From: Oscillospiraceae bacterium
Lineage (GTDB): Bacteria; Bacillota; Clostridia; Oscillospirales; Ruminococcaceae
DNA: 64,000 nucleotides
Assembly: GCA_017505635.1 (NCBI GenBank)
Contig: JAFVOU010000022.1
Coordinates: forward strand, 37,915 to 101,914
Reading direction: 5' to 3'
Numbering within the stretch: position 1 is the stretch's first letter; every line of letters starts with the position of its first letter. The notes beneath the pieces were generated by a model that saw only the letters and a list, made by a program, of their open reading frames with translations, was not told where the DNA came from and did not search any database. The position numbers were made by a program, and so were the translations under genes. This document shows, in pieces, positions 46,646 to 63,011 of this stretch.

Positions 46646-49027
46646 ATGAAAATAAAAAAATATCTATCAGTTTTAATTGCTGTAACATTTATCTTCTGCC
46701 TGTGTGCAGTCACCGCCAGCGCAGCCAAGCTGACCGCTCCTGTGGTAACTATTTCCTGCGCAGAAAAAACAGGCAAACCTACACTTAAATGGGAAGCTGT
46801 TGAAGGCGCAACAAAATATCAGATATGGCGCTCCAAAACAGGCAAAGTCGGCAGCTTTGCACTTATCAACACAGTTACAGGCACAAGCACAACCAACAAC
46901 AATGCTGTAGCCGGCACAAAATACTTCTACAAAGTTAAAGCTGTAAATGCAAACAGCAGTGTCTTTTCACAGCCTGTAAGTATTGTATGCGACCTTCCAA
47001 GCCCGGAAAATCTTACCATTACAAATGACGCCGCAACAGGCAAGCCAAAACTTACCTGGAACAAGGTGGAAGGTGCGGTAAAATATCAGATTTACCGTTC
47101 CAAAACAGGCAAGGACGGCTCCTTCAGCCTTATTAACACAATCACAGGTACAAATACCATCAACAAAAATGCTGTTGCCGGTACAAATTACTACTACAAA
47201 GTTAAAGCTGTGCACACAAACACAAATGCAAACAGCGCATTTTCCGCAAAGGTAAGCTGTGTATGTGATCTTGCACGTCCTGCAAACCTGACTGTTTCAA
47301 ACGATGATGCAACAGGAAAACCTGTTATAAAATGGGACGCTGTTGACGGTGCTGCAAAATATCAGGTTTACCGTTCCAAAACAGGCAAGGACGGCAGCTT
47401 TGCACTTATCTCCACAACAACAGCAAAAAGTCTTATCAACAAAAATGCTGTGGCAGGCACAAATTATTACTACAAAGTTAAAGCTGTACACACAAATGCA
47501 AATGCAAACAGCGCATTCTCCTCTTCTGCAACCTGTCTGTGCAAACTTGCAAAACCTGAAATCATCTCCGTAACAAACGATGCATCAGGCAAACCTGTTA
47601 TAAAATGGAATGCTGTTGAAGGTGCAGTTAAATATCAGATTTACCGTTCCAAAACAGGCAAAGACGGTTCCTTCAGCCTTATCAATACAGTTACAGGCAC
47701 ATGCACAACCAACAACAATGCCGTTGACGGACAGACCTATTACTACAAAATCAGAGCCGTACATACAAACACAGATGCAAACAGCGTTTTCTCTGATGTA
47801 AAAGTACGTTCAGGCAAACTTTCCGCACCTGTAATCTCCATCCAGGCAAACAGCGACGGAAACCCATATATCACTTGGAATGCCATTGACGGTGCAGCAG
47901 GTTACGAAATCTACCGTGCAGTAAACGAAAACGGTCTTTACCGCAAAATATTCACAGCACAGGGCGCATCATTCACAAACAGTAATTTGTGCAATGGCGC
48001 AACATATTATTACAGAGTAGTAGCCGTTTCAGAAAATACAGACTTAAACTCTGAATTTTCCAACACTGTAACCTTTATTGCCGGCGGCAGACCCAAAGCT
48101 TTCCGTGCAATGTATGTTACACAGCTGCTGATAAAAGCTTACGAAGAACCTGTAACCGACTACAACACAATAACAATTCCATATATGTACGAAGTGTATG
48201 TAGGACCAAACATCTCCGAATCTGCAGACGGTGTGTGGACACAGATCAGATACAATGAAAAAATCTATTACACATGGATTGCAGCAGGCGATACAAAATT
48301 TACTGACACGCAGAGCAACTTTGACTACACACGTTCTGACTACACCGAAATTCAGAACAAAATCCTTGCCTCTGCAGTACCTTGGAAAGACCAGCCAACA
48401 TACTATGCTCATGGTCAGTCCAATGGTGTTATCGACCCTGCAACAGGCAAATACGGTTTTGACTGTTCCGGCTTTGTAAGATACATTATCGCAAATGTTA
48501 TGCAGCAGTACAATCCGTCCTACTTCATCTCCTCCAACATCGTTGACCTTTACAACCACAAAACACTCTACAATAAAGGCTTCAAACATCAGTTTGACGT
48601 TATTGATGTAGACAAAGAAGACCTGCAGCCGGGCGATGTTATATTCTTCAAGCTTGACCCGACAGACTCAAGACCTGTAACCCACTGTGTGCTTTATCTG
48701 GGCAACAACGAGTACATTCACTCCACAGATACCACAGACGGTGTTTATATTGCCCCTCTCACACAGGAACGTATCGACAACATCGTTGCTATCAAACGTT
48801 ATTTCCCTGAAGCAGTAAAACCTGCAAACCAGACTCTTGTAAACACAGAAGGCCGCACACTCGGTCTCTTTGCCGAAGCAAGCACAGATTCCGAAAGAAT
48901 CGGTGACATTCCACGCGACAGCACAGTAACTTTGCTCTATACAAACTACTTTGAAAACTGGGGCTATGTACAGACTGATGACGGTGTAAAAGGCTATGTG
49001 CTTCTGAAATACTTCGCTATTGCATAA
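46646..49027 (+). CDS. cell-wall hydrolase paralog: signal peptide + 5 FN3-like repeats + NlpC/P60 + SH3b
   Basis: It has the same architecture as 44075-46459, with FDCSGF, HCVLYLG and NWGYVQTDDGVKGYV. Repeats 2-4 are very similar to one another. Confidence 0.85.
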   Translation: MKIKKYLSVLIAVTFIFCLCAVTASAAKLTAPVVTISCAEKTGKPTLKWEAVEGATKYQIWRSKTGKVGSFALINTVTGTSTTNNNAVAGTKYFYKVKAVNANSSVFSQPVSIVCDLPSPENLTITNDAATGKPKLTWNKVEGAVKYQIYRSKTGKDGSFSLINTITGTNTINKNAVAGTNYYYKVKAVHTNTNANSAFSAKVSCVCDLARPANLTVSNDDATGKPVIKWDAVDGAAKYQVYRSKTGKDGSFALISTTTAKSLINKNAVAGTNYYYKVKAVHTNANANSAFSSSATCLCKLAKPEIISVTNDASGKPVIKWNAVEGAVKYQIYRSKTGKDGSFSLINTVTGTCTTNNNAVDGQTYYYKIRAVHTNTDANSVFSDVKVRSGKLSAPVISIQANSDGNPYITWNAIDGAAGYEIYRAVNENGLYRKIFTAQGASFTNSNLCNGATYYYRVVAVSENTDLNSEFSNTVTFIAGGRPKAFRAMYVTQLLIKAYEEPVTDYNTITIPYMYEVYVGPNISESADGVWTQIRYNEKIYYTWIAAGDTKFTDTQSNFDYTRSDYTEIQNKILASAVPWKDQPTYYAHGQSNGVIDPATGKYGFDCSGFVRYIIANVMQQYNPSYFISSNIVDLYNHKTLYNKGFKHQFDVIDVDKEDLQPGDVIFFKLDPTDSRPVTHCVLYLGNNEYIHSTDTTDGVYIAPLTQERIDNIVAIKRYFPEAVKPANQTLVNTEGRTLGLFAEASTDSERIGDIPRDSTVTLLYTNYFENWGYVQTDDGVKGYVLLKYFAIA
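46727..48080 (+). repeat. five tandem ~90-codon FN3-like repeats (coding)
   Basis: K(Y)QIYRSKTGKDGSF...NYYYKVKAVHTN recurs nearly verbatim in repeats 2-4. The boundaries are approximate. Confidence 0.7.
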
Positions 49028-49170: not shown

Positions 49171-51241
<2,071 letters not shown>

Positions 51242-52313: not shown

Positions 52314-55300
52314 TTACGCCACCCAGTTATAACCGGTCATCGCCTGATCAACGATATGATCAAACACCAGCGTACTCTTTCTCAAGAATATTTCTCTGTC
52401 GTAACTCTCTGGCAAAAACTTATTTAGGATATAGACAATCTCGCCCTTCACTCGTTCCTTCGGCTGCGGATCATTTTGCCATCCAACAATAAACAACTCA
52501 TTACGTTTTTCGGTAAGCGTGTTGTACAGTTCTTTAGCTGCCAGTTTTACACGCTTTTCCTCATCCGAAGTAAGATGTTCTTTTCTCAGAAGGTCAAACA
52601 ATTCCAACTCAGCTTCTGATAGCTCTTCCTTGATATGTCGTTCTTCCTCTGCACGAAGTTCTTCCATCAGCTTCAGAAGTTTTTCATAGAAATCATCATT
52701 TTGAGAGCCACCGGCATTGTACTCATCAATGATATTTCTGAAACGCTCTGCAAACTTTGTACGGGTTGTGTTGCGTCGCAGCATTTTCTGAAGCTTTTCT
52801 TCGATATGCTTACGAAGATTTACAATTTCAAGATTCTTGTTCTTCAGCTTTTTGAATTGAGATCTAAGTTCATCAATATCCAACTTGGACAGATCCAGTT
52901 CTTTTCCCGCTTCTGTAATGGTATATTTTCTCGCATCAGCGGCAGTAATAACGCTCTGATCTAACAGCTCATTGATTCTGGCTTGTGCTGCTTCGATCTT
53001 TTCCGGACGGATTTTGCCATCAATGATTCCCTTCAAATAGAGGATAGCATCTTTGTATGCAGGCTCAAAATCCATCTTGAAAATATCCGGTCGTAGGGAT
53101 TCGTACAGACCATCAACGGTATTTGCCATTACAGCAAACTCATTCTTCACATCGTCATTACCTACGATGGTATTTGCATAATCCTCAAACAGCGACAAAT
53201 TCTTGAATGTATCGCCGTCTTCAACAACCTTACTTAAATCTACGTCATGGCTCATACAGAATGTTTTGGTCAGGTCGATTGCTTCATGCAACTGCCCCAA
53301 AAGCTTTTCTACGTCTTTCACCGGCATTAAACCGCCATCATCAGACGCATAATCTGCCAGGGCACGTTTCAGATATTTGAACACATCCAGATAGTCGATG
53401 ATCAGACCACATTCCTTACCGTTATAGACACGGTTTGCACGGGCAATAGTCTGCATCAGGGTATGACCCTTCATCGGTTTGTCCAAATACAGGGTAGAAA
53501 CGGACGGTGCATCAAAACCTGTTAGCCACATAGCGCAGACAAAAACCAATTGCAACGGATTATTTGGGTCTTTGAAGTTATCTTCAATGTCAAAACCGTT
53601 TTCATCAACCTTGTTCATGCGGTCACGATGCGGTTTTATGGACAATCCTTCTGCTGCAAATTTAGCTTCTTCATCGGCATCTTCACTGATGACAACAGCC
53701 ATTTCCACTTTGCGCATATAATCTACCATATCTTTTAGGCGAAGTTTTTCAGCCTCACCCTTGGCTTTGGTTATCTGCGCATTTAACTTTTTAATTTCTT
53801 CTTTCCAGTAGTAGCTTACTTTATCGTACATCTTCACGGCAGTAAACTTGTCTACGGAAACAACCATGCCCTTTCCTCGGAAACCACGGCGAGGGAAATG
53901 GTAAACGATGTGCTGAGCAATGGCATCCAGACGGTCATCACGCTTGATGACTTCCAGTTCCTTTGCGTAGTGATTTTCCAATCGGCGCTGCTCTGCATCA
54001 GTCAGGTTTTCTTCTTCCAGAATTTCTGCAAAATCAGAATCAAGGAAATCGTTCTGCAACTCTACCTCCGGTACACGCTTCACATAGTAGAGTGGTACGG
54101 TAGCATTGTCTTTGATTGATTCTGCAAAATTGTATTCGCTGACATAATCACCGAACCACGCATTAGTCAGTCGCTTTGCGCCGAGCAGAGGTGTACCTGT
54201 AAATGCCAGGAACTGTGCATTAGGCAGGCCGGTGCGCATATTCTCAGCTAAATCCTTATACTGTGTGCGGTGCGCCTCATCAACGATAACGATGATGTCA
54301 TCACGCTCAGACAGGACAGGATATTTCTTTCCCTTGTCATATCTGAACTTATGAATCAGCGTAAACAGAATGGATTTATTGGTTTTCAGTTCTTCACGCA
54401 ACTGCTTACTGTTTGCAGGCTGTACCTTGTCCTTATCGGTAATAAATTCGGTACGCAAGAAATTCTTATAAATCTGTGTATCCAGATCTTCACGGTCTGT
54501 AACGATAAGAAATGTAAAGTTGCCCGTACATTTATGCTTGATCTTACGGGTGAGCATAACCATAGAATAACTCTTGCCACTACCCTGTGTATGCCAGAAT
54601 ACACCCAACTTGCCTTTCAATTCCTCACGACGCAGGAAAGCATTGTAAGCGTTATTTACACCAAAGAATTGGTGATTCTTTGCAATGATTTTTGTTCTGC
54701 GGCGGTCGTAAAGAATGAAGTTCTCTATGTAATCCAGCAGATTGTTCGGTTCGCAAAGACCGGCAATAAAATACTCCAAACTGGTGCAGTTCTCTCGGAT
54801 GGCTTTTCTGTCCGGGTTTTCTTTTTCGTTCTCCACCTTCAGCCATTCAAAGAAGAACTCATACCCAGCGGCAAAGCTACCCAGACGAGTTTCCATACCA
54901 TTAGACAGAACACAAATCTGGTTGTAGTTGAACAGATACGGAATGTCCTTCAGATAGTTCTTCAGGTTGATGTCATAGGCGTTCTTCACCGGAATATTGC
55001 TGTTTTTCAGTTCAATGAAAACCATAGGGAATCCATTGATGAAGATAATCAGATCCGGTCTGCGCCAATGGGTTTCACCCTTGATCCACATCTGAGAAGC
55101 AACCGTAAATGTGTTGCTCAAAGCATCATTATAGGACAACAGACGGAGGATGTTGGAGGTCTTCTTGCCGTTCATGTTGTATTCTACAGTTATACCGTTA
55201 CGGATCTTCTGATAGTTATGGTAATTGGTCAGCATTAGATCACCGGAAACTGGAGTACGACACAGCTCGTCCACCACAGTGCGAACAGTCTGTTCCGGAA

Positions 55301-55496
55301 TATCCGGATTGATCCTGCATAAGCTCTCAAACATCACATCGGGCAGAACAACCTGTTTCTTATCTTTACGTCCGGTTCCGTCAGGAAGTGTATCCGGTTC
55401 TTCTGTCATACAGTTCAGAACAATATAATCATGCCGCTCATGCAAAGCCTTGATGGCAGCCTGCTCTATCATATCTTCTGTTATGATTTTCGGCAT
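52314..55496 (-). CDS. hsdR: Type I restriction enzyme R subunit
   Basis: The 1060-aa product has an N-terminal nuclease region, helicase motifs (HTQGSGKS, IVIVDEAHRTQ, FTGTPL) and a C-terminal helical domain. Confidence 0.95.
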   Translation of the reverse strand: MPKIITEDMIEQAAIKALHERHDYIVLNCMTEEPDTLPDGTGRKDKKQVVLPDVMFESLCRINPDIPEQTVRTVVDELCRTPVSGDLMLTNYHNYQKIRNGITVEYNMNGKKTSNILRLLSYNDALSNTFTVASQMWIKGETHWRRPDLIIFINGFPMVFIELKNSNIPVKNAYDINLKNYLKDIPYLFNYNQICVLSNGMETRLGSFAAGYEFFFEWLKVENEKENPDRKAIRENCTSLEYFIAGLCEPNNLLDYIENFILYDRRRTKIIAKNHQFFGVNNAYNAFLRREELKGKLGVFWHTQGSGKSYSMVMLTRKIKHKCTGNFTFLIVTDREDLDTQIYKNFLRTEFITDKDKVQPANSKQLREELKTNKSILFTLIHKFRYDKGKKYPVLSERDDIIVIVDEAHRTQYKDLAENMRTGLPNAQFLAFTGTPLLGAKRLTNAWFGDYVSEYNFAESIKDNATVPLYYVKRVPEVELQNDFLDSDFAEILEEENLTDAEQRRLENHYAKELEVIKRDDRLDAIAQHIVYHFPRRGFRGKGMVVSVDKFTAVKMYDKVSYYWKEEIKKLNAQITKAKGEAEKLRLKDMVDYMRKVEMAVVISEDADEEAKFAAEGLSIKPHRDRMNKVDENGFDIEDNFKDPNNPLQLVFVCAMWLTGFDAPSVSTLYLDKPMKGHTLMQTIARANRVYNGKECGLIIDYLDVFKYLKRALADYASDDGGLMPVKDVEKLLGQLHEAIDLTKTFCMSHDVDLSKVVEDGDTFKNLSLFEDYANTIVGNDDVKNEFAVMANTVDGLYESLRPDIFKMDFEPAYKDAILYLKGIIDGKIRPEKIEAAQARINELLDQSVITAADARKYTITEAGKELDLSKLDIDELRSQFKKLKNKNLEIVNLRKHIEEKLQKMLRRNTTRTKFAERFRNIIDEYNAGGSQNDDFYEKLLKLMEELRAEEERHIKEELSEAELELFDLLRKEHLTSDEEKRVKLAAKELYNTLTEKRNELFIVGWQNDPQPKERVKGEIVYILNKFLPESYDREIFLRKSTLVFDHIVDQAMTGYNWVA

Positions 55497-55526: not shown

Positions 55527-56582
55527 TTATAGTCCCATAAAATTCAAAATATCCTTAAATTCAGTTTTGATATGTTCGGTAAGAGGAAGTCCCTTGGCAT
55601 CCTTTATAAACTCCATAAATTCAGGAAGATCTAATAGGATTTTCTGAACAATTCGTTTTTCCTTGATTTGATGAATTGCACGAGTAGGATCACCTAAAGC
55701 TTCAATCTGCTCTTGTAATTCTTTTTCTACCTTTGCCCAATATAAGCTGTATGTAGTCTGTCCTTCAAGAGAATATACTTTTGCCCCAATGGAAGGCAAA
55801 GATTGATCTTGATAGTATTGAATATCACCATCAGAGAGGACAATAAAAGCAAGCTTCTTTTGGAATTGGGAATCCTTGATTACTTCCAGCACTTCAAACA
55901 TACAGTTTCTGGATTTCAAATAGTGATCACTGATGATCATTATTACAAAATCATGCGTCTCAATAGTCTGCATGAATTTTTTGAAGCTTTCATGATACTC
56001 AACATCACGAATATCTCGTGAGATTCTTGCCTTTCCATTGATGTGTGGTGCAAGTCCACCCTCTATCATGTTCGCAATATCAGAATCTTTCTGACAATAG
56101 GACAAAAATAGTGTTTTCTCCTGTAATTCAGTAGTCACTTCAGATTCATTTTCTGGGCAGTCAAGCAAAGAGAGTTCCAGATAACTCTTGACCGCTGTTA
56201 CAAACGGCTCAACGGTTTTACGCATAAAAGCAGCAATCATATCTTTGAATTTTTTGCTACTGGAATAACCGTAAGCCAAGGCGTGTAATTGCTTCGGACC
56301 ATCCAAGATATATTGCAACAACTGGTATCCGTAGTCGATAATCGCTTCCTGAGAGTCGGGCAATGTCAGCATATCGTTCCAGGATTTGTTTTTATATATT
56401 TCTGCAAAGTCATAATTCTCTTTATGGCATTCAGAAATATACTCCATAATGAACGAAGTATTAGTAATGTAATCGAAGAAAATCTTGACACAATTGATTT
56501 CCTCCTGGGAATCTATCTTCAACATCTGAGAAGATAGCGTTCTATACTGCAATGAAATTTTTCTTAGCTCTTTCTTTGTCAC
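55527..56582 (-). CDS. TIR-domain protein with an uncharacterised helical N-terminal domain
   Basis: Residues ~166-290 read LFLSYCQKDSDIA...FVIMIISDHYLKSRNCMFEVLE. This matches the canonical TIR (F/V)xSYxxxD and SxxYxxSxxCxxE motifs. The GTG start overlaps the upstream stop (GTGA) and follows GGAGGGG. Confidence 0.75.
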   Translation of the reverse strand: MTKKELRKISLQYRTLSSQMLKIDSQEEINCVKIFFDYITNTSFIMEYISECHKENYDFAEIYKNKSWNDMLTLPDSQEAIIDYGYQLLQYILDGPKQLHALAYGYSSSKKFKDMIAAFMRKTVEPFVTAVKSYLELSLLDCPENESEVTTELQEKTLFLSYCQKDSDIANMIEGGLAPHINGKARISRDIRDVEYHESFKKFMQTIETHDFVIMIISDHYLKSRNCMFEVLEVIKDSQFQKKLAFIVLSDGDIQYYQDQSLPSIGAKVYSLEGQTTYSLYWAKVEKELQEQIEALGDPTRAIHQIKEKRIVQKILLDLPEFMEFIKDAKGLPLTEHIKTEFKDILNFMGL

Positions 56583-57034
56583 AGCTTAGCCCCTCCACAC
56601 AATGGACAATAAATGCCAATTTCCTTATCAAAATACTGTACTTTTACAGAAGAATCACAGCATTTCAGTTCAACAGTTTCATACTCATTAACGGGTTGAT
56701 ATAATTCTTTCTCCGGCTCCTTTTTAGGAATATCCATCGACATTTTCACGAAGCCATTCTTATTGAACTTCTTAATGGATTTCCCCAAAGTTCTCTCTAA
56801 TTCTGAATACATATAATTCAATGCAACCTGTTCCATCTTTTCCAGAACTTCCGTGCAATAAAATGTATCGGTTCCATTAGGGAGCCCACATACTGGACAA
56901 AAGAAGTGCAAATAGCTTTCATCTTGAAATGTATCTGCATGAAGCATAAAACGATTCTTGCAAAAATCGCATTCCATCTCCAAAAAACCATCTTTATCTA
57001 CAGGTATTCCAATTTCAAAAGTTTTTTCACTCAT
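56579..57034 (-). CDS. double zinc-ribbon protein
   Basis: It has CDFC...CPVCG near the N-terminus and CC...CPLCGG at the C-terminus, around a helical core. It is translationally coupled to the TIR gene. Confidence 0.65.
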   Translation of the reverse strand: MSEKTFEIGIPVDKDGFLEMECDFCKNRFMLHADTFQDESYLHFFCPVCGLPNGTDTFYCTEVLEKMEQVALNYMYSELERTLGKSIKKFNKNGFVKMSMDIPKKEPEKELYQPVNEYETVELKCCDSSVKVQYFDKEIGIYCPLCGGAKL

Positions 57035-57046
57035 TTTCTTTACCTC

Positions 57047-57823
57047 TTACGCCTCTGAACTCACCATGTGCGAGGGTTTGTACTCTATTGACTCGTATGT
57101 CATAGAATTGCAACGATAAACACAAACTCTTGGTAAAGACACAGGAGGTTCAATGTGTTGAAAATGTTTGTACGGCGTAAACCAGACAAAATAATCGATG
57201 TCAGAACCAATAAATACATCAAGAAAAGCTTTGTCAAAAAACCAAGCATGAGGTGTTCCTGCTTCGCCTTCATTGGAAAATACATTGGTCTCACGCTCAG
57301 CTTCAAAGTATGCTGATGATTCATCGTAAACGAAAAATATCAACTTACTTCCAGGATGGTTTTTTCGATACAATGAAATTCTTTGCTTATGATGCTCAAC
57401 AGTTCTCATAAAATTATCTCTGTAGTAACGATAATTATGATCTTCCAAGGTCGGTAAATCTGTTACGGCGTTAATTACAATGTGTTGGAGGTTTGGATAT
57501 GCATCCATAACTCCAAGGTCACGCAATTCTTTTTCCAATTTATGTTGTCGTTCATAATTGGGATTTCGCACCTTGCCTTTTTTCTTGAACCCGTGATCAT
57601 CCACACGCATTACTTCTAACATCAAGTGCTGTGTATCGTTATAAAAATCTGGTGGTGGAGCATCCTTGGATGATGCATCTGTCCACTCTTTCCACTCAGA
57701 TTCATCATATATAGAATTAAACACCTCTACAGTTTCCTTATCATCATTTACAAGAAATATTTCTTGCGGAAAAACAAGGCGAAGATCATCCAACAAATTT
57801 GCTTCTTTTTCTTCAAATAACAT
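57047..57823 (-). CDS. hypothetical 258-aa protein (function unknown; weak PD-(D/E)xK-like PPDF...LEVMR segment)
   Basis: It has a good RBS (GGAGGTG). It lies 19 nt after the hsdS stop and 12 nt before the zinc-ribbon gene. No confident family was recognised. Confidence 0.65.
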   Translation of the reverse strand: MLFEEKEANLLDDLRLVFPQEIFLVNDDKETVEVFNSIYDESEWKEWTDASSKDAPPPDFYNDTQHLMLEVMRVDDHGFKKKGKVRNPNYERQHKLEKELRDLGVMDAYPNLQHIVINAVTDLPTLEDHNYRYYRDNFMRTVEHHKQRISLYRKNHPGSKLIFFVYDESSAYFEAERETNVFSNEGEAGTPHAWFFDKAFLDVFIGSDIDYFVWFTPYKHFQHIEPPVSLPRVCVYRCNSMTYESIEYKPSHMVSSEA

Positions 57824-57842: not shown

Positions 57843-59066
57843 TTAATTAACCTCCAGTTTACCGCTCATCAGGCGAGGTAACAACATATCACGCTGTGTA
57901 GCAAGGTTTCTGTTTTTATCCATCAGGGTCATAATTTCCCGGTCAATCGGTTCAATCACTTCTGTAAACGCAACGATAAGGTATGCATCGGGTTTTAAGA
58001 GTTTAATTCTTTTGATGTTATAAAGCGGCAACTTAGGTTGAGTTGCTCCAACAATTCCTGCTTGAATTGCGCCTTTTCCCGCATCAGAGTTCAAGAAATG
58101 ATACAAAAAAGAATTTGTAAAATGTCTTACATTAACGAGCTTCACACAGTTTTCTGTCAGATTTGCCCCATCAAGACTTTTTCCAACGCAAGCTATGGCT
58201 CCGATTGTTCCGACAATGGAAACCAAAACATCGTTTGTGTTAACTGTGAAACGCTGAATAATGTCAAATGTTTCGTCATCTATGTACTCAAAACTATTGG
58301 TTAGAGAAATAAATTTCGATGCTGTAATATCTCGTATTCTAATATAAGGGTGCTCTGTTATCCTGCCACAAAGAGTCTTTCCTTCGGGTAATCTTTTTCC
58401 ACCCTTGATGTCCACATAATCGCCCAATTTAACTACATTCCATCCCTTTGGGAGACCATTCTCGAACTTAGTGTTTTCATACCCCGGAAAGCGAAAACGG
58501 ACAAACCATTCCTTATACAGCTCCTGTGCTGTCTGCTCCAACAATTCAATTCTACGGTTGTTTGCTTCAATCAGATCGTCGTAGGCAGAGAGAATATCTG
58601 CTATGCGTTCCTGCGTAGGAAGATCTGGCAAGTTGAGCTTTAAGCGCTGTATAAACCTTTTATCCGCACGCTGTCTGCCGCTTGCACCGGTCATGCTGTT
58701 GATTGCTGGCAACACAACTGCATCACTGGAAGTAAGATAATAGGTGAATCGTGCATCAGCCTTTTTCTTTTTTGCTCTAAAGACATAGAACTCAGTTGAG
58801 CCAAACGCAGCATCACCATCAATGGCTACTTTGGCGATCTTTCTATTCTCCAAGCAAGGTGTAATGCGGGAAAAAACAGTATCACCATCACAAAATTTAC
58901 TGCTACTTTGTCCGTCATAAACTTTTACTTCTTCGTTCGTCACCGAACGGCGGGTGGGTGATACTTTATCAATATCAATAAAAGGGTAAGATTCTCCCTT
59001 TTTCAGCTTCACAGGCGGATTTACATCAATAATATCTTCTAATCTTTTTTCTTCCCATTTACTCAA
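57843..59066 (-). CDS. hsdS: Type I restriction enzyme S (specificity) subunit
   Basis: It has two target-recognition domains separated by the conserved LPTQERIADILSAYDDLIEANNRRIELLEQ helix, and a C-terminal repeat of that helix (NLATQRDMLLPRLMSG). The TTG start follows GGAGG. Confidence 0.9.
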   Translation of the reverse strand: MSKWEEKRLEDIIDVNPPVKLKKGESYPFIDIDKVSPTRRSVTNEEVKVYDGQSSSKFCDGDTVFSRITPCLENRKIAKVAIDGDAAFGSTEFYVFRAKKKKADARFTYYLTSSDAVVLPAINSMTGASGRQRADKRFIQRLKLNLPDLPTQERIADILSAYDDLIEANNRRIELLEQTAQELYKEWFVRFRFPGYENTKFENGLPKGWNVVKLGDYVDIKGGKRLPEGKTLCGRITEHPYIRIRDITASKFISLTNSFEYIDDETFDIIQRFTVNTNDVLVSIVGTIGAIACVGKSLDGANLTENCVKLVNVRHFTNSFLYHFLNSDAGKGAIQAGIVGATQPKLPLYNIKRIKLLKPDAYLIVAFTEVIEPIDREIMTLMDKNRNLATQRDMLLPRLMSGKLEVN

Positions 59067-59778
59067 CTTTTTCCGCCTCCTTCCGTTCTATATATTCCAA
59101 CAAAAAATTAATACATGACTCAACAAAATAATATTTGAATCGCTCATACTGCATTGTTGTATTAAAGATATAGGTGCGAGTCATTTTCATTTGATTCTGA
59201 TATTTATACGACTTGAGAATCTGTCTATCTGTTTCTAATGAAGCAATCCAGGTTGAATCGTTGTCATGTGCAAAAAATTGCATTTTCCAATAGTTCCCCT
59301 CATGGGCCACAATATCTCGCACAGCTTTAATAATCTCAAAGAAATCATCAATGGTCAATTCATGGCTCGCTTCATATTGATGATTCATATATACATCTTC
59401 AAAACCTGTCAACGAAAAGTTTTCAAGTATATATGCTTTTCCCTCATCACTCATGTATGATGGAAAACCTTCATAAAAAACCGGCTTCTTCATACCGGAT
59501 AACGCACACAGTGCTTCTAAGCAAGTTTTGATAAAGAAAATCCTAAGCGGATCTCGTCCGGGACGAATCTGATCAATATCGTTCGCAATAGAAACGAGGT
59601 GTTGGATCTGATTCATCATTCGACGAGGCGTTTTATCTTTGTCGTCATTTTGGAACACCTTTACGAAGAACGAAATCATATCCCGTTCTGATTCGAAGTT
59701 GTCCCTATAGAATTCAGACATCTGCACATAATATTCTTTATCAAATCCGACCGATTCAAATAGTTCTTCTGCTGTCAT
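59059..59778 (-). CDS. HEPN-like (Rx4H) hypothetical protein embedded between hsdM and hsdS
   Basis: The 239-aa product is mostly helical, with AVRDIVAHEG fitting the HEPN Rx4-6H signature. It shares an ATGA overlap with the hsdM stop and an 8-nt overlap with the hsdS start. Confidence 0.6.
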   Translation of the reverse strand: MTAEELFESVGFDKEYYVQMSEFYRDNFESERDMISFFVKVFQNDDKDKTPRRMMNQIQHLVSIANDIDQIRPGRDPLRIFFIKTCLEALCALSGMKKPVFYEGFPSYMSDEGKAYILENFSLTGFEDVYMNHQYEASHELTIDDFFEIIKAVRDIVAHEGNYWKMQFFAHDNDSTWIASLETDRQILKSYKYQNQMKMTRTYIFNTTMQYERFKYYFVESCINFLLEYIERKEAEKVE

Positions 59779-61523
59779 TCAAATAATCCCTTTAAATTCT
59801 CTGCAATCTTATTTTCCAAACTGTGTGCTTCTTCGTTCAGCTTGGACAGTGCCGTATAATATGCCATCATTCGTTGCTTGAACTCATCCTGTGTTAAACC
59901 GTCATCCTCGATCACAACACCGACATAACGACCAGGATTCAGGGAGAAGTCCTGATCACCGATACTGTCATCCTCATAGCCAACAAACTTTCCCTTGTCA
60001 TCATAAACCTTGCCAATTGTTGCTACCTTGCACAGACCGACAACATCTCTGTATTTCCCTTCAGGGAAACGCTCTGTCAGCCAATCAATGTTGGACTGCC
60101 AGTAGCTCTTAGGCATTATATCTTCGTCATCAGATACTTCCGGTGCTTCTGCCAGTTTTGCACGGTAATCCGCCAACAGAGTTTCGAAGTCCTCTGTTTT
60201 TCCTTCGTAAAGTCTGGTGATGATACCAAGATTGCGAATCTGTTCGTCAGAGAACTTTCGGTGCGCACGGTCAATCTGAGTAAAGATATTTCTGGCATCA
60301 ATAAACAGGATTTCATCCTTCTTTATCTTCGCCTTATCAAAGAACCACAAGGTGGCAGGCAGCGTAACAGAGGTAAACATATTGGACGGCAGTGTTACCA
60401 TCTGGCTGATAATTCCGCTTTCAATCAGCTTTACACGAATATCCTTTTCGCTGTTGCCTGCGTCGGATGCGGAGTTTGCCATAACCAGAGCAGCACGACC
60501 ACCATCATTCAGCGCAGTTGCAAACTGGTTAATCCAAAGGTAGTTGCCGTTCGGCACAGTTTCTTTTGCATCTTTCTTTTTGTTCTTGGTTTTGTTCTGA
60601 GGTACACCGTATGTGTTAAAACGGGGCTGATCTTTTACCTGATCCAGTTCTACGCCATCTACATTAAACGGAGGATTTGCCATAACATAGTCGAAATTAC
60701 CGAAGCTGTCGTATGGGTCACGGTAATAGGAGTTTGCGTGGGTAATGGTGCCACGGACATTGTTCAGGACAAGGTTCATCTTTGCCAGTCGAACAGTTGC
60801 ACCGGTCTTTTCTACGCCATATGCACGCAGGTTCATCTGCTTGCCCTGAGCTTTGTGCTTTTCGATATAATGAGCGGTCTGAACGAACATACCACCACTG
60901 CCACAGGCAGGGTCAAGAATCTTGCCTTCAGTAGGCGCAAGAACTTCAACCATGTAACGGACAACGGATGCAGGGGTGAAGAATTCACCGCCACCCTGAC
61001 CTTCAGCCAGTGCAAATTCGCCCAGGAAGTATTCGTAAATCTCACCAAAGATGTCCAGTTCCACATCAGCAGGAATGTCCTTGAAGTTCTTCAAGAGCTT
61101 TGCCAATACGAGCGGATCATCTTCGCTGTTAACGCTATAATAAATATCTTTCGGAAGTGTATCTTCCAATTCGGCGGTGTATTTTTCAACCGCTTCCATA
61201 GCTTCCTTAACCTTTTTAGCAAGATCTTCGCTTTCAGGCAGATTCAGCAGCCAATCATATCGGGCTTCTTCAGGTAGATAAAAACCGCATTTTTCGATAG
61301 CAATTTCGTGGATAGGGCGTTCCATACGAGTGCCCTTGATAGAAGCAAACTCTGCCTTAATCTCAGCTTCGAACTTGCTGTATTTTACATCTGCAAATCG
61401 CAGGAAAATCAGGCCGAGAATAGGCTCGGCATATTCAGTAGACTTCAATCCGGAATTAGCACGCAGCTGATCGGCAGTCGTCCACAATGTATCTTTTAAG
61501 TTTTTCAACTGTTTATTAGTCAT
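59775..61523 (-). CDS. hsdM: Type I restriction enzyme M subunit (N6-adenine methyltransferase)
   Basis: It has an HsdM N-terminal domain, DPACGSGGM (AdoMet binding) and NPPF (catalytic). The start was trimmed to the ATG at 61523 behind GGAGGAG. Confidence 0.95.
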   Translation of the reverse strand: MTNKQLKNLKDTLWTTADQLRANSGLKSTEYAEPILGLIFLRFADVKYSKFEAEIKAEFASIKGTRMERPIHEIAIEKCGFYLPEEARYDWLLNLPESEDLAKKVKEAMEAVEKYTAELEDTLPKDIYYSVNSEDDPLVLAKLLKNFKDIPADVELDIFGEIYEYFLGEFALAEGQGGGEFFTPASVVRYMVEVLAPTEGKILDPACGSGGMFVQTAHYIEKHKAQGKQMNLRAYGVEKTGATVRLAKMNLVLNNVRGTITHANSYYRDPYDSFGNFDYVMANPPFNVDGVELDQVKDQPRFNTYGVPQNKTKNKKKDAKETVPNGNYLWINQFATALNDGGRAALVMANSASDAGNSEKDIRVKLIESGIISQMVTLPSNMFTSVTLPATLWFFDKAKIKKDEILFIDARNIFTQIDRAHRKFSDEQIRNLGIITRLYEGKTEDFETLLADYRAKLAEAPEVSDDEDIMPKSYWQSNIDWLTERFPEGKYRDVVGLCKVATIGKVYDDKGKFVGYEDDSIGDQDFSLNPGRYVGVVIEDDGLTQDEFKQRMMAYYTALSKLNEEAHSLENKIAENLKGLFE

Positions 61524-61734
61524 TTGTATTCTCCTCCGGCACATATTGCATCAGATCGCCATAATCACAGTTCAACACATCGCAAATCCTACCAAGGATC
61601 GCAAGATTGACTGGTTCGTCTCTGCGAAGTTTCGTCATTGTATTTGGAGCAATATCTGCCGCTTTTCGTAAATCTGCTTTACTCATTTTCTTATCGACAA
61701 GCAGTTTCCACATTCGGTTATATGAAATAGCCAT
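61516..61734 (-). CDS. XRE-family HTH protein, first gene of the hsd operon (controller-like)
   Basis: It reads MSKADLRKAADIAPNTMTKLRRDEPVNLAILGRICDVLNCDYGDLM and is 72 aa. It overlaps the hsdM start by 8 nt. The RBS is ACAGGAGGT. Confidence 0.85.
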   Translation of the reverse strand: MAISYNRMWKLLVDKKMSKADLRKAADIAPNTMTKLRRDEPVNLAILGRICDVLNCDYGDLMQYVPEENTND

Positions 61735-61947
61735 GCTTCTACCTCCTGTTTCTTCTTTCACGCTTACTGTGTATAATAATAGCAAAGTTTGTCGCAATTT
61801 TCAAGATACTTTCGCAACTATATGCGATACTCGACTTCTTTTTAGGATTTTCGATGTTAATGGTCATTTCGCTTCGATTCCATTCCGGATAGGATAGGAA
61901 AGGATCAGTATCACTATAGTCAGTATTATTTATATCAGTATTATTAC

Positions 61948-62086: not shown

Positions 62087-62350
62087 TTATTCATCCATGA
62101 CTTCTAACATCATCCTGGCTCCCAGTTTGAAGCTATTTTGGAATATCAGGCACTCCGTAAAGGTTTGATGTTCTCGGACACAATCAGTGTATTTCTCGAA
62201 CAATGCTTTCTGCTCGTCCGTCATAGCTGCTCGGAGTTTTTCTTCATTCCGGCAAATCATTTCCTGTAATTTCTTATACTCTTTACAGGAAGAAGTATCG
62301 TAGTCGGTAGGCTCGATATTGCCATACCAAAATTCTTCAAGGATTTTCAT
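62087..62350 (-). CDS. small conserved transposon-associated protein
   Basis: The N-terminal ILEEFWYGNIEP motif and its 87-aa length resemble a family that accompanies TnpV in clostridial elements. It shares an ATGA overlap with the TnpV-like stop. Confidence 0.55.
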   Translation of the reverse strand: MKILEEFWYGNIEPTDYDTSSCKEYKKLQEMICRNEEKLRAAMTDEQKALFEKYTDCVREHQTFTECLIFQNSFKLGARMMLEVMDE

Positions 62351-62709
62351 ACGATGTCCTCCTCATAAACCAGTTCCCGGAGGACGAGTTCTTCTGCCTG
62401 CGCTTTCAAGCTATTCATGTGCGACACCCATGCAAGTTGCTGTGTTGCCTTGTCTGGAGCTGGATTCTTCGCCAGCAATTTCTCCATCAGCAACTCCATT
62501 CGATTCTCACAGGTCTGCTGTACTTCCCACAGATGCGGGAACAATGTTTCTGTTAAAACCATGTCGTTGAAAAGCATCGGTTTGTTCTGTTCCAGGAATG
62601 CTCTGCGCATCCTGCCGTATTTGCCAAGCGTCTGTGTTCCCGTATGTTCCAATCTAATGTCAGGGATATAGTAATCACCATATTGGGTGTAAGTTAAGTT
62701 CTGAGCCAT
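62347..62709 (-). CDS. TnpV-like transposon accessory protein
   Basis: It reads LTYTQYGDYYIPDI...GKYGRMRRAFLEQNKP...HLWEVQQTCENRMELLMEKL, which resembles the TnpV family. The start was trimmed to the ATG at 62709 behind GGAGGT. Confidence 0.6.
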   Translation of the reverse strand: MAQNLTYTQYGDYYIPDIRLEHTGTQTLGKYGRMRRAFLEQNKPMLFNDMVLTETLFPHLWEVQQTCENRMELLMEKLLAKNPAPDKATQQLAWVSHMNSLKAQAEELVLRELVYEEDIV

Positions 62710-63011
62710 AATAGTACCTCCAATCAATCCTCTGTTTTCACTTAGATTGTACTGGATGGAACAGGAAAAGGGAAGTTTGTTGTATACGAAAATGAGCGAT
62801 ACCTGGTCATTCAAACCAAGTATCGCTCATTCTGTTTTGCTAACCTCGACTGCCAGATGCCGTAATCATAGAAAATTTGTTGTTTCCTGTATTATGGGCA
62901 CCCGGCATTTGACGGTGGCTTTTCTTTTTCAGCACAACAAAATCCCCGTACACAATAAATGTACGGGGATTTATCAATTCTGATGTGCAGCTGTACAACA
63001 GTCACTGCCTG

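What the first reader, a model, noticed from the sequence alone, without database searches (positions are those of the whole stretch)
55527..57823. Three-gene TIR / double-zinc-ribbon / unknown cassette wired between hsdS and hsdR
Three tightly coupled genes sit inside the Type I R-M operon, with a 19-nt gap after hsdS, a 12-nt gap, a GTGA overlap, and then 30 nt to hsdR.
- The first is a 258-aa protein of unknown family, with only a weak PD-(D/E)xK-like PPDF...LEVMR segment.
- The second is a 151-aa protein with two Cys4 zinc ribbons (CDFC...CPVCG and CC...CPLCGG).
- The third is a 351-aa protein whose C-terminal half shows the canonical TIR motifs, LFLSYCQKDSD and SDHYLKSRNCMFEVLE (SxxYxxSxxCxxE, which includes the catalytic-Glu position). 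Its N-terminal ~160 aa form an uncharacterised helical domain.

Bacterial TIR proteins are NAD+-consuming or signal-producing immune modules, as in Thoeris, CBASS/Pycsar effectors and SPARTA. None of the usual partners is present here: no SIR2, SLOG, Macro, pAgo, cyclase or STING domain. The position mirrors the classical prr locus, where the PrrC anticodon nuclease sits between hsdS and hsdR and is kept latent by the R-M complex. This cassette may therefore be an undescribed abortive-infection backup that fires when the restriction enzyme is inhibited.
Basis: partly seen in the sequence, partly recalled or inferred. Interest (0 to 1): 0.85.

Follow-up and report, generated by a model that had tools for sequence, protein, structure and literature searches.

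The report
Two defence cassettes inside restriction operon
The three genes between hsdS and hsdR are real, but they are two separate mobile defence-type cassettes (a lone nuclease-like gene, and a zinc-ribbon + TIR pair already listed as the untested PADLOC candidate PDC-M14) sitting in a known cargo hot spot of type I restriction operons, so this is a useful candidate rather than a new kind of system.

Summary
Observation confirmed. Three minus-strand genes (258, 151 and 351 aa) lie between hsdS and hsdR with exactly the stated junctions. The 351-aa protein has a genuine TIR domain with the catalytic Glu position conserved.

Interpretation only partly supported.
1. The trio is not a unit.
   - The 258-aa gene (geneA) and the Zn-ribbon/TIR pair co-occur only in near-identical copies of this element: 2 of 78 geneA loci and 2 of 80 TIR loci.
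   - A relative with a ~90% identical backbone has the pair without geneA and carries Drt4 instead.
2. The pair is already catalogued. The Zn-ribbon protein matches PADLOC PDC-M14A over its full length. The N-domain of the TIR protein matches PDC-M14B. PDC-M14 is an untested candidate derived by "guilt-by-embedding" (Payne et al. 2024). The new element here is the effector swap: TIR plus a helical tail replaces the canonical helical C-terminus.
3. A PrrC-like dependence on HsdMSR is unsupported. About half of the evaluable pair loci lie outside type I operons.
4. GeneA is an uncatalogued family spread across several phyla and strongly, but not exclusively, linked to hsd. Its structure model is confident yet has no match among solved structures, and it shows only a weak link to DpnII/MboI-type nucleases.

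Most likely function: autonomous abortive-infection modules in a cargo hot spot of a mobile type I R-M operon.

The parts
57047..57823 (-). geneA: 258-aa single-gene cassette. It belongs to an uncatalogued, hsd-linked family with a conserved acidic/His residue set. It is possibly a nuclease or hydrolase.
   Evidence: - Family size: 277 homologs.
- Invariant residues: D59, D75, D76, D128, H129, H145, N155, H156, D167, E168, S169, D197, D210, K219.
- AF2 model: pLDDT 89, pTM 0.88.
- No significant PDB or BFVD fold match.
- 14 of 41 members touch Pfam DpnII-MboI below threshold.
- No PADLOC, NCBIfam or PHROG hit.
- 78 loci in several phyla.
- 25 of 42 evaluable loci have hsd genes nearby, and 18 of 42 are bracketed by them.
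56579..57034 (-). Zn-ribbon protein of 151 aa with two Cys4-type ribbons. It is a PADLOC PDC-M14A homolog. Its proposed role is sensor or regulator partner of the downstream protein.
   Evidence: - PDC-M14A E = 5.6e-41 over the full length.
- Conserved cysteines.
- Lies directly upstream of the TIR gene in 67 of 70 evaluable loci.
- Co-diverges with the TIR protein.
- 32% identical to the partner in the canonical B. cereus pair, with all Cys positions kept.
56133..56582 (-). N-terminal all-helical domain (aa 1-150) of the 351-aa protein. It is the domain shared with canonical PDC-M14B.
   Evidence: - PADLOC PDC-M14B E = 3.3e-37, but covering only profile positions 3-143 of 267.
- hhalign against canonical PDC-M14B: probability 99.96%, E = 6e-39, limited to residues about 4-150.
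- 179 clusters in the representative library, most 255-280 aa long.
- Helical in the AF2 model, with no PDB match for this part.
55527..56132 (-). TIR domain (aa about 156-256) plus a conserved C-terminal helical hairpin (aa about 272-348). This is the proposed effector module.
   Evidence: - Pfam TIR_2 above the gathering score.
- TIR fold hits.
- E230 aligns with the catalytic Glu.
- The same module is fused to a C5-MTase domain (L175) and to an AlbA_2/SLFN domain (L177, L180).
52314..55496 (-). hsdR: downstream border of the cargo slot.
   Evidence: Pfam HSDR_N, SWI2_SNF2, T1R_D3-like and T1RH-like_C; PADLOC REase_I E = 1.2e-174.
57843..59066 (-). hsdS: upstream border of the cargo slot.
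   Evidence: Pfam Methylase_S E = 4.3e-32. The N-terminal half is 89% identical to L005, while the C-terminal TRD differs.
59059..59778 (-). orf239: a further embedded ORF, sitting in a second variable slot between hsdM and hsdS.
   Evidence: - No Pfam, PADLOC or NCBIfam hit.
- Weak hit to PHROG 2158 'abortive infection resistance protein', E = 9.6e-4.
- Replaced by an unrelated 167-aa gene in L005.
59775..61797 (-). HTH_26 regulator gene (61797..61516) and hsdM (61544..59775): the start of the operon.
   Evidence: Pfam. The best promoter-like site on the minus strand, 61804..61776, lies at the annotated TTG start (61797) of the HTH gene and overlaps its first codons.

Best explanation
The interval holds two independent cargo cassettes. 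Both were inserted into the hsdS-hsdR hot spot of a type I R-M operon. The operon is carried on a TnpV / TnpX-serine-recombinase mobile element.

Cassette 1 (geneA) is a single-gene module.
- It is found in many phyla and is usually translationally coupled to hsdR.
- It also occurs in other defence neighbourhoods.
- It probably encodes a metal-dependent nuclease or hydrolase that acts on its own as an extra defence layer (inferred).

Cassette 2 is an obligate two-gene module.
- It consists of a double-zinc-ribbon protein and a protein built from a helical N-domain plus an effector.
- It is the TIR-effector variant of the PADLOC candidate PDC-M14.

Proposed mechanism for cassette 2 (inferred):
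- The zinc-ribbon protein and the N-domain form the conserved sensing or restraining core.
- An infection cue releases or oligomerises the protein.
- The TIR domains then assemble into an active NADase, deplete NAD+, and abort the infection.

The module works autonomously. Its place inside hsd reflects a shared cargo slot, co-regulation and co-transfer. It does not reflect control by HsdMSR.

Shown: gene structure, domain identities, modularity and distribution. Inferred: defence role, NADase activity and the trigger.
For: Modularity:
- The window and L005 share a ~90% identical backbone, and the pair is 84.5% identical. GeneA is missing from L005, and Drt4 sits between TIR and hsdR there.
- L100 has geneA, the pair and an extra gene.
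- GeneA occurs without the pair in 76 of 78 loci.
- The pair occurs without geneA in 78 of 80 loci.

Obligate pairing:
- The Zn-ribbon gene lies directly upstream of the TIR gene in 67 of 70 loci.
- The two proteins co-diverge.
- The pairing is kept in the canonical B. cereus pair at 32% identity.

PDC-M14 relationship.

Effector nature of the TIR module:
- TIR_2 scores above the gathering cut-off.
- The fold matches TIR domains.
- The catalytic Glu is aligned and invariant.
- The same module is fused to other N-terminal domains.
- No ThsA-type partner is present.

Autonomy from hsd:
- 15 of 34 evaluable loci lack hsd genes.
- Alternative contexts include a DISARM-like locus, a Bpu10I REase, and Cap4 with SLFN.

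Hot-spot nature of the slot:
- Other occupants are Drt4, PDC-S20, a PD-T4-6-like kinase and PDC-S31.
- Published examples are TgvAB, DarTG2 and PrrC.

Mobile element: DUF6809, TnpV and a large serine recombinase flank the operon.

GeneA:
- Its neighbours in the loci without hsd genes are mostly defence genes.
- The family shows a recurrent weak DpnII-MboI signal.
Against: - No experimental data exist for any member. PDC-M14 itself is untested.
- The Trp of the common TIR WxxxE motif is an invariant Asn here (RNCMFE). NADase competence or product type is therefore uncertain.
- Foldseek E-values for the whole TIR-protein model do not reach 1e-3.
- The roles assigned to the zinc-ribbon protein and the N-domain are inferred only from conservation.
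- GeneA has no significant fold or profile match, so 'nuclease' is weakly based.
- Many metagenome loci are near-duplicates, so the 17-versus-15 split is not a count of independent events.
- My Hsd HMMs may miss divergent type I systems.
Confidence: 0.6

Rival explanations
1. PrrC-like guard. The cassette is held latent by the HsdMSR complex and fires when a phage anti-restriction protein inhibits the enzyme.
For: - The pair sits in the same position as prrC, between hsdS and hsdR, in the window and in at least 10 distinct contexts.
- The genes are tightly coupled and co-transcribed.
- GeneA is often 3-16 nt upstream of hsdR.
Against: - The pair lies outside type I operons in 15 of 34 evaluable loci and in Anaerocolumna.
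- The canonical PDC-M14 pair is not in an R-M locus.
- 17 of 42 evaluable geneA loci have no hsd genes.
- PrrC is almost exclusively embedded.
- There is no similarity to PrrC.
Confidence: 0.1
2. The three genes form one co-functional three-component system, for example geneA as nuclease effector or sensor together with the Zn-ribbon and TIR proteins.
For: Adjacent, on the same strand, with short gaps in the window. The same trio is present in L017, L019, L100 and L149.
Against: - All trio loci belong to close relatives of one element, with 88-100% protein identity.
- The families are otherwise separate.
- The DNA comparison shows a clean presence/absence of geneA.
- The gene next to the pair in L001 is unrelated to geneA.
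Confidence: 0.04
3. The Zn-ribbon/TIR pair is mainly a toxin-antitoxin addiction module. The TIR protein would be the toxin and the zinc-ribbon protein the antitoxin. Its role would be to stabilise the mobile element or the R-M operon, not to sense phage.
For: - Small upstream gene overlapping a larger downstream effector gene.
- Obligate pairing.
- Location on mobile elements.
Against: - The neighbourhoods are overwhelmingly defence genes rather than plasmid-maintenance genes.
- The effector part is swappable on a conserved N-domain, which is typical of sensor-effector immune proteins.
- TA and Abi roles are not mutually exclusive.
Confidence: 0.15
4. Thoeris-like signalling. The TIR protein makes a nucleotide signal that activates a separate effector encoded elsewhere.
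For: Weak PADLOC hits to ThsB profiles, E = 0.0025-0.022. The Trp-to-Asn change near the catalytic Glu could fit an altered product.
Against: - No ThsA-type gene (SIR2/SLOG, Macro, TM or caspase-like) is next to the pair in any locus examined.
- In canonical PDC-M14B a non-enzymatic helical tail stands in place of the TIR, which argues that this position holds the terminal effector.
Confidence: 0.08

Closest known systems
PADLOC phage defence candidate PDC-M14 (Payne, Hughes, Fineran & Jackson 2024, bioRxiv 10.1101/2024.01.29.577857; PADLOC-DB v2)
   Same: - The Zn-ribbon protein matches PDC-M14A over its full length, E = 5.6e-41.
- The N-terminal 140 aa of the second protein match PDC-M14B (E = 3.3e-37; hhalign probability 99.96%).
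- Same two-gene order.
- Same discovery logic, namely embedding in R-M, BREX or DISARM loci.
   Different: - Canonical PDC-M14B is about 255-280 aa. It ends in a G-Q-V-N-x-A linker and an amphipathic helical tail.
- Here that part is replaced by a TIR domain plus a helical hairpin, giving 348-362 aa.
- PDC-M14 is only a candidate, with no experimental test found.
prr locus / PrrC anticodon nuclease in EcoprrI
   Same: A cell-suicide-type gene located between hsdS and hsdR of a type I R-M operon.
   Different: - No sequence or domain similarity: PrrC is an ABC-ATPase plus an anticodon nuclease.
- PrrC is almost exclusively hsd-embedded, whereas the pair and geneA are each often found elsewhere.
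- Latency under Hsd is untested here.
Other defence systems embedded in type I R-M operons: TgvAB (V. cholerae VPI-2, PMC11411939) and DarTG2 with RptR (EPEC, PMC12255303)
   Same: - Independent defence modules inserted between hsdS and hsdR.
- A small HTH regulator gene at the head of the operon, as in the RptR island.
- The slot is regarded as a recombination hot spot.
   Different: The proteins are unrelated: GmrSD-like in TgvAB, an ADP-ribosyltransferase TA system in DarTG2. Those systems have been experimentally validated.
TIR-effector abortive-infection proteins (TIR-SAVED/CBASS, SPARTA TIR-APAZ, TIR-STING, AbTir-type NADases) and Thoeris ThsB
   Same: TIR fold with the conserved catalytic Glu, attached to a separate sensing module. 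The expected output is NAD+ cleavage.
   Different: - No SAVED, APAZ/pAgo, STING, cyclase or ThsA partner.
- The sensor is a novel helical domain plus a zinc-ribbon partner.
- The WxxxE Trp is Asn.
- There is an extra conserved C-terminal helical hairpin.
DpnII/MboI-type restriction endonuclease domain (Pfam PF18742), as a comparison for geneA
   Same: Recurrent weak profile match of geneA residues about 146-180 in 14 of 41 family members (best E = 1.2e-5). The context is R-M loci.
   Different: - The score is below the Pfam cut-off (17 against 27 bits for the window protein).
- No structural match to any solved nuclease.
- No adjacent cognate methylase of its own.

Membership tests
PADLOC PDC-M14 | Gene A of the system: a PDC-M14A (double zinc-ribbon) protein | tested here: met
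   PDLC04447 E = 5.6e-41, residues 1-148 against profile positions 1-149 of 152.
PADLOC PDC-M14 | Gene B of the system: a full-length PDC-M14B protein | tested here: inconclusive
   - Five PDC-M14B profiles match, but only over the N-domain. The best is E = 3.3e-37, profile positions 3-143 of 267.
- hhalign confirms that homology stops at about residue 150.
- Whether PADLOC's coverage rules would call the system was not run.
PADLOC PDC-M14 | The two genes adjacent on the same strand | tested here: met
   4-nt overlap in the window; adjacent in 67 of 70 loci.
TIR-domain NAD+ hydrolases | TIR domain by profile and by fold | tested here: met
   Pfam TIR_2, 37.2 bits against a cut-off of 28. Foldseek top hits are TIR domains, with probability about 1 and TM per target 0.5-0.61.
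TIR-domain NAD+ hydrolases | Catalytic Glu in the alpha-C helix | tested here: met
   E230 is invariant in 37 sequences and aligns to the Glu of ...WCLDEL... in plant TIR NADases. The preceding Trp is Asn.
TIR-domain NAD+ hydrolases | NAD+ cleavage activity | not testable with these tools
   Needs a biochemical assay.
Thoeris | ThsB-type TIR together with a ThsA effector (SIR2/SLOG, Macro-TM, or caspase-like) | tested here: not met
   Only weak ThsB hits, E = 0.0025-0.022. No ThsA-type domain in the window operon or in related loci.
PrrC-type hsd-guarded abortive infection | Located between hsdS and hsdR | tested here: met
   and many related loci.
PrrC-type hsd-guarded abortive infection | Near-exclusive association with type I R-M | tested here: not met
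   Pair: 17 embedded, 2 partial and 15 not embedded out of 34 evaluable loci. GeneA: 25 of 42 evaluable loci have hsd genes nearby. PrrC is described as almost exclusively embedded.
PrrC-type hsd-guarded abortive infection | ABC-ATPase plus anticodon-nuclease architecture; physical masking by HsdMSR | tested here: not met
   No PrrC or ABC-ATPase profile hit. Physical association cannot be tested here.
PD-(D/E)xK / DpnII-MboI restriction endonucleases (geneA) | Profile match above threshold, or a nuclease fold match | tested here: not met
   - PF18742 scores 17.1 bits against a cut-off of 27.
- 14 of 41 members hit at E <= 0.05.
- No PDB or BFVD fold hit at E <= 1e-3.
- No relation to the HsdR N-terminal nuclease domain.

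The most novel reading that the evidence does not exclude
The zinc-ribbon protein plus the helical N-domain is a previously uncharacterised infection-sensing module that can drive interchangeable effectors (a TIR NADase here, a helical tail in canonical PDC-M14). Separately, geneA is a new-fold enzyme family that has co-evolved with type I R-M operons across bacterial phyla and archaea. GeneA could act as an accessory or back-up to HsdR, for instance against modified or restriction-resistant DNA.
Probability: 0.25. Interest if true: 0.65.

Novelty: new variant of a known kind. Interest (0 to 1): 0.42.

Why it matters
If validated, the pair would turn an untested PADLOC candidate (PDC-M14) into a defined sensor-effector family. 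It offers a natural effector swap between a TIR domain and a helical tail, which helps separate sensing from killing.

GeneA would add an abundant gut-Clostridia and multi-phylum defence or R-M accessory gene that current defence-finding tools miss.

The locus is also a clear example of cassette shuffling (geneA, PDC-M14-TIR, Drt4, and others) in the hsdS-hsdR slot of a mobilisable type I R-M element. That is useful for 'guilt-by-embedding' discovery in MAG-rich lineages that RefSeq-based screens under-sample.

Tried and rejected
- Trio as a unit: rejected by distribution and by DNA comparison.
- GeneA homolog next to the pair in Anaerocolumna: none.
- GeneA as a diverged HsdR N-terminal nuclease domain: hhalign probability 0.25%.
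- GeneA fold search against PDB and BFVD: nothing significant. Profile against PDB sequences: nothing.
- Sequence searches of the three proteins against PDB: only marginal TIR and generic zinc-ribbon hits.
- NCBIfam and PHROGs: uninformative for the three proteins.
- Literature search for 'PDC-M14', or for a named zinc-ribbon + TIR system: none found.
- Promoter and terminator scan: counts do not exceed shuffled expectation, and there is no convincing internal terminator. It says little.
- GeneA and orf239 in plasmid records: no match.
- My first tblastn-based hsd detection was too insensitive and read only part of the loci. It was replaced by iterative HMMs.
Full report
**1. Observation**

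The minus strand of the window carries one operon:
- an HTH_26 regulator gene (61797..61516)
- hsdM (61544..59775)
- an unassigned 239-aa ORF (59778..59059)
- hsdS (59066..57843)
- geneA (57823..57047, 258 aa)
- a 151-aa gene (57034..56579)
- a 351-aa gene (56582..55527, GTG start)
- hsdR (55496..52314)

Pfam and PADLOC confirm HsdM, HsdS and HsdR.

The junctions were read at base level, and each gene has a Shine-Dalgarno sequence:
- 19 nt after hsdS
- 12 nt between geneA and the 151-aa gene
- a GTGA overlap between the 151-aa and 351-aa genes
- 30 nt before hsdR

G+C falls to 0.35-0.38 across 55.5-58.2 kb, against 0.43-0.47 in hsdR and hsdM.

The 351-aa protein has a TIR_2 domain above Pfam's cut-off (residues 159-251, 37.2 against 28 bits). 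Its AF2 model (pLDDT 84) has four parts:
- a helical N-domain (3-141)
- a disordered linker (145-152)
- a beta/alpha TIR core (156-256)
- a C-terminal helical hairpin (272-329)

Foldseek's top PDB hits are TIR domains: SARM1, L6, Roq1, RUN1, RPS4, BtpA, MyD88, PdTIR and AbTir. They have probability about 1 and TM per target 0.5-0.61, although whole-model E-values stay above 1e-3.

E230 is invariant in 37 homologs. It aligns with the Glu of WCLDEL in plant TIR NADases. The Trp four residues upstream is an invariant Asn.

The 151-aa protein keeps eight cysteines in two ribbons.

All three proteins have 100-400 database homologs.

**2. The 'trio' is two independent cassettes**

*Contexts of diverged TIR-protein homologs:*
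- Lachnoclostridium-type contigs (88% identity): TnpV, HTH, hsdM, a 167-aa gene, hsdS, Zn-ribbon, TIR, RT, hsdR, serine recombinase. GeneA is absent.
- A 63%-identity relative: hsdS, Zn-ribbon, TIR, KAP-NTPase, kinase, hsdR.
- Anaerocolumna cellulosilytica: the pair lies outside any hsd operon, and its upstream neighbour is unrelated to geneA.
- L095 and L098: the minimal arrangement hsdS, Zn-ribbon, TIR, hsdR.

*Contexts of diverged geneA homologs.* Four homologs at 45-52% identity, including one from a Lentisphaeria MAG, all lie between hsdS and hsdR. None has the pair.

*Wider surveys:*
- In 78 geneA loci from species-representative genomes, only the two near-identical ones (98-100%) hold the pair.
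- In 80 metagenome loci of the TIR protein, only two hold geneA.

*DNA alignment* makes the cassette structure explicit.
- The window and L005 are about 90% identical across TnpV-HTH-hsdM, the hsdS N-half and hsdR. They are 84.5% identical across the pair.
- The geneA segment (about 57843-57034) has no counterpart in L005.
- L005 has a 1.5-kb gene between TIR and hsdR, where the window has 30 nt. That gene is Drt4 (PADLOC E = 8e-219).
- L100 carries geneA, the pair and an extra ~1.5-kb segment.

**3. The Zn-ribbon/TIR pair**

*Match to PDC-M14:*
- PADLOC-DB matches the Zn-ribbon protein to PDC-M14A over its full length (E = 5.6e-41).
- It matches the first ~140 residues of the TIR protein to five PDC-M14B profiles. 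The best is E = 3.3e-37, covering profile positions 3-143 of 267.
- PDC systems are the 145 untested 'phage defence candidates'. Payne et al. derived them from genes embedded in BREX, DISARM and type I R-M loci and added them to PADLOC.
- No paper in the library mentions PDC-M14 or a named zinc-ribbon + TIR system.

*The N-domain family and the effector swap:*
- A library-wide search with the N-domain finds 179 clusters. Most are 255-280 aa long, and the 348-362-aa ones carry TIR_2.
- Canonical members continue into a conserved G-Q-V-N-x-A / D-x-S-x-I-x-A linker and an amphipathic helical tail. That tail shows only a weak resemblance to coiled coils.
- hhalign shows that homology with the TIR form stops at about residue 150 (probability 99.96%).
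- A canonical pair on a B. cereus megaplasmid keeps the Zn-ribbon partner at 32% identity, with all cysteine positions conserved. It is not in an R-M locus.

*Pairing:*
- The Zn-ribbon gene lies directly upstream of the TIR gene in 67 of 70 evaluable loci.
- It diverges in step with its partner: 65% against 66%, and 62% against 63%.

*The TIR module as a portable effector.* The TIR plus C-terminal-hairpin module is also found in two other architectures:
- fused to a full-length C5-DNA-methylase domain in L175
- fused to an AlbA_2/Schlafen domain next to a GHKL ATPase, in L177 and on a B. cereus plasmid

The Zn-ribbon/N-domain partnership is therefore the conserved core, and the TIR part is a portable effector.

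**4. Relation to hsd**

Of 34 pair loci with at least 3 kb on both sides, 17 are bracketed by hsdS and hsdR, 2 are partial, and 15 have no hsd genes.

The non-embedded contexts are still defence-rich:
- between an Eco57I/MmeI-like methylase and a DEAD-MZB helicase (DISARM-like)
- next to a Bpu10I REase
- next to a Cap4 nuclease and a SLFN/AlbA protein
- in the order Fic-HTH, pair, RT

The hsdS-hsdR slot also holds Drt4, PDC-S20, a PD-T4-6/mad6-like kinase and PDC-S31 in related operons. In the literature it holds TgvAB, DarTG2 and PrrC.

This pattern fits a recombination and cargo hot spot with co-transfer and co-regulation. It does not fit a PrrC-type functional dependence, since PrrC is almost exclusively embedded. 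The PrrC-like model cannot be excluded experimentally, but it is disfavoured.

**5. GeneA**

*Lack of annotation and fold match:*
- The family has 277 hits, 245-277 aa long. It has no PADLOC, NCBIfam or PHROG model.
- The alignment shows a dense invariant set of acidic, His and Lys residues.
- The AF2 model is confident (pLDDT 89, pTM 0.88).
- The model has no PDB or BFVD match at E <= 1e-3. The best PDB hit is E = 0.42 with TM <= 0.21.
- The family profile finds nothing among PDB sequences.

*Possible nuclease link:*
- The only recurrent profile signal is a sub-threshold match to the DpnII-MboI REase family, seen in 14 of 41 members (best E = 1.2e-5).
- GeneA is not related to the HsdR N-terminal nuclease domain.

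*Taxonomic spread.* It occurs in Clostridia, Bacilli, Erysipelotrichia, Coriobacteriia, Lentisphaeria, Saccharibacteria, Gastranaerophilales, Selenomonadaceae and two archaeal MAGs.

*Linkage to hsd*:
- 25 of 42 evaluable loci have hsd genes in the flanks.
- 18 of 42 are bracketed by hsd genes on the same strand.
- Where hsdR follows, the gap is at most 60 nt in 18 of 25 loci.

*Neighbours elsewhere.* In the remaining loci its neighbours include other DNA methylases, RE_XamI, UvrD/AAA_15/AAA_21 ATPases, Fic, an SLFN helicase, JetA and a SMODS-associated NUDIX.

GeneA is thus an uncatalogued single-gene family with strong but not exclusive linkage to type I R-M. A metal-dependent nuclease or hydrolase role is my best guess, and it is weakly based.

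**6. Mechanism**

*Shown:*
- operon structure
- domain identities
- obligate Zn-ribbon/N-domain pairing
- effector swapping
- independence of the cassettes
- defence-island contexts

*Inferred:*
- The Zn-ribbon protein and the N-domain sense an infection cue or hold the protein inactive.
- Activation lets the TIR domains oligomerise into an active NADase, which depletes NAD+ and aborts infection.
- GeneA acts separately as an extra nuclease-type layer.

*Rival explanations* (toxin-antitoxin addiction, Thoeris-like signalling, PrrC-like guarding, true three-gene system) are listed with their tests.

**7. Verdict**

The features are real and make good experimental candidates. But the embedding concept is published, the pair is a variant of a catalogued candidate, and the trio is a juxtaposition of cassettes.

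- Novelty: new variant of a known kind (the TIR-effector form of PDC-M14), plus an uncatalogued hsd-linked family (geneA).
- Interest: moderate.

Noticed in passing
window 59059-59778 (- strand): A fourth embedded gene, orf239, sits between hsdM and hsdS and overlaps both neighbours. It has no Pfam, PADLOC or NCBIfam hit, and only a weak PHROG 'abortive infection resistance protein' match (E = 9.6e-4). The same slot holds unrelated genes in relatives: a 167-aa gene in L005, 296-aa and 160-aa genes in L008, and DUF1016/YhcG in L012. This is a second variable cargo slot.
   Followed up: partly
window 62087-62814 and 49171-50925 (- strand): The whole R-M operon lies between DUF6809 + TnpV genes and a TnpX-like large serine recombinase (Resolvase + Recombinase + Zn_ribbon_recom + DUF4368). 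A relative (L008) also has Mob_Pre. From my own knowledge this resembles a Tn4451-type mobilisable transposon, here carrying a defence island.
   Followed up: partly
L175 5933-7594: A 553-aa fusion of a full-length C5 DNA-methylase domain (Pfam E = 1.8e-43) to the same TIR + helical-tail module. Motif IV reads PFQ instead of PCQ, so the catalytic Cys appears replaced. This may be a dead methylase used as a DNA sensor for a TIR effector.
   Followed up: partly
L177 1822-5247; L180 (B. cereus plasmid CP009368) 1241-4624: A different two-gene arrangement: an ~800-aa GHKL-type ATPase (HATPase_c_3) followed by an AlbA_2/Schlafen-TIR protein that uses the same TIR module. It was not checked against defence databases.
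   Followed up: partly
L150 957-13544: The Zn-ribbon/TIR pair is embedded between a 1586-aa Eco57I/MmeI-like methyltransferase and a 2099-aa DEAD + MZB (DUF1998-type) helicase. This is a DISARM-like locus, not a type I system.
   Followed up: partly
L004-L007 10113-11615; L102/L103 8113-9615: A Drt4 reverse transcriptase (PADLOC E = 8e-219) directly follows the pair inside hsd operons. A 500-aa RVT_1 gene at the same position follows the pair outside them (Fic-HTH, pair, RT). The pair and the RT may therefore move together as a mini-island.
   Followed up: partly
window 57843-58439 vs L005 7974-8546: The hsdS N-terminal half is 89% identical to the relative, but the C-terminal target-recognition half is not alignable. 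This indicates TRD swapping, that is, a different specificity on the same backbone.
   Followed up: no
L031, L037, L047, L057, L058, L070 (upstream of geneA): Extra partial hsdS ORFs in inverted orientation lie next to the main hsdS. This looks like invertible (phase-variable) hsdS shufflons in operons that also carry geneA.
   Followed up: no
window 46646-49027 (+ strand): A 793-aa secreted-looking protein with about five tandem fn3-like repeats, an NlpC/P60 domain and a C-terminal SH3_3 domain. It lies just outside the recombinase end of the element.
   Followed up: no
geneA model mcc93597d54fb (window 57047-57823): A high-confidence AF2 model (pLDDT 89, pTM 0.88) with no PDB or BFVD neighbour at TM above about 0.2. 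It may be a new fold, or a strongly rearranged nuclease fold. No AlphaFold DB library was available to check.
   Followed up: partly
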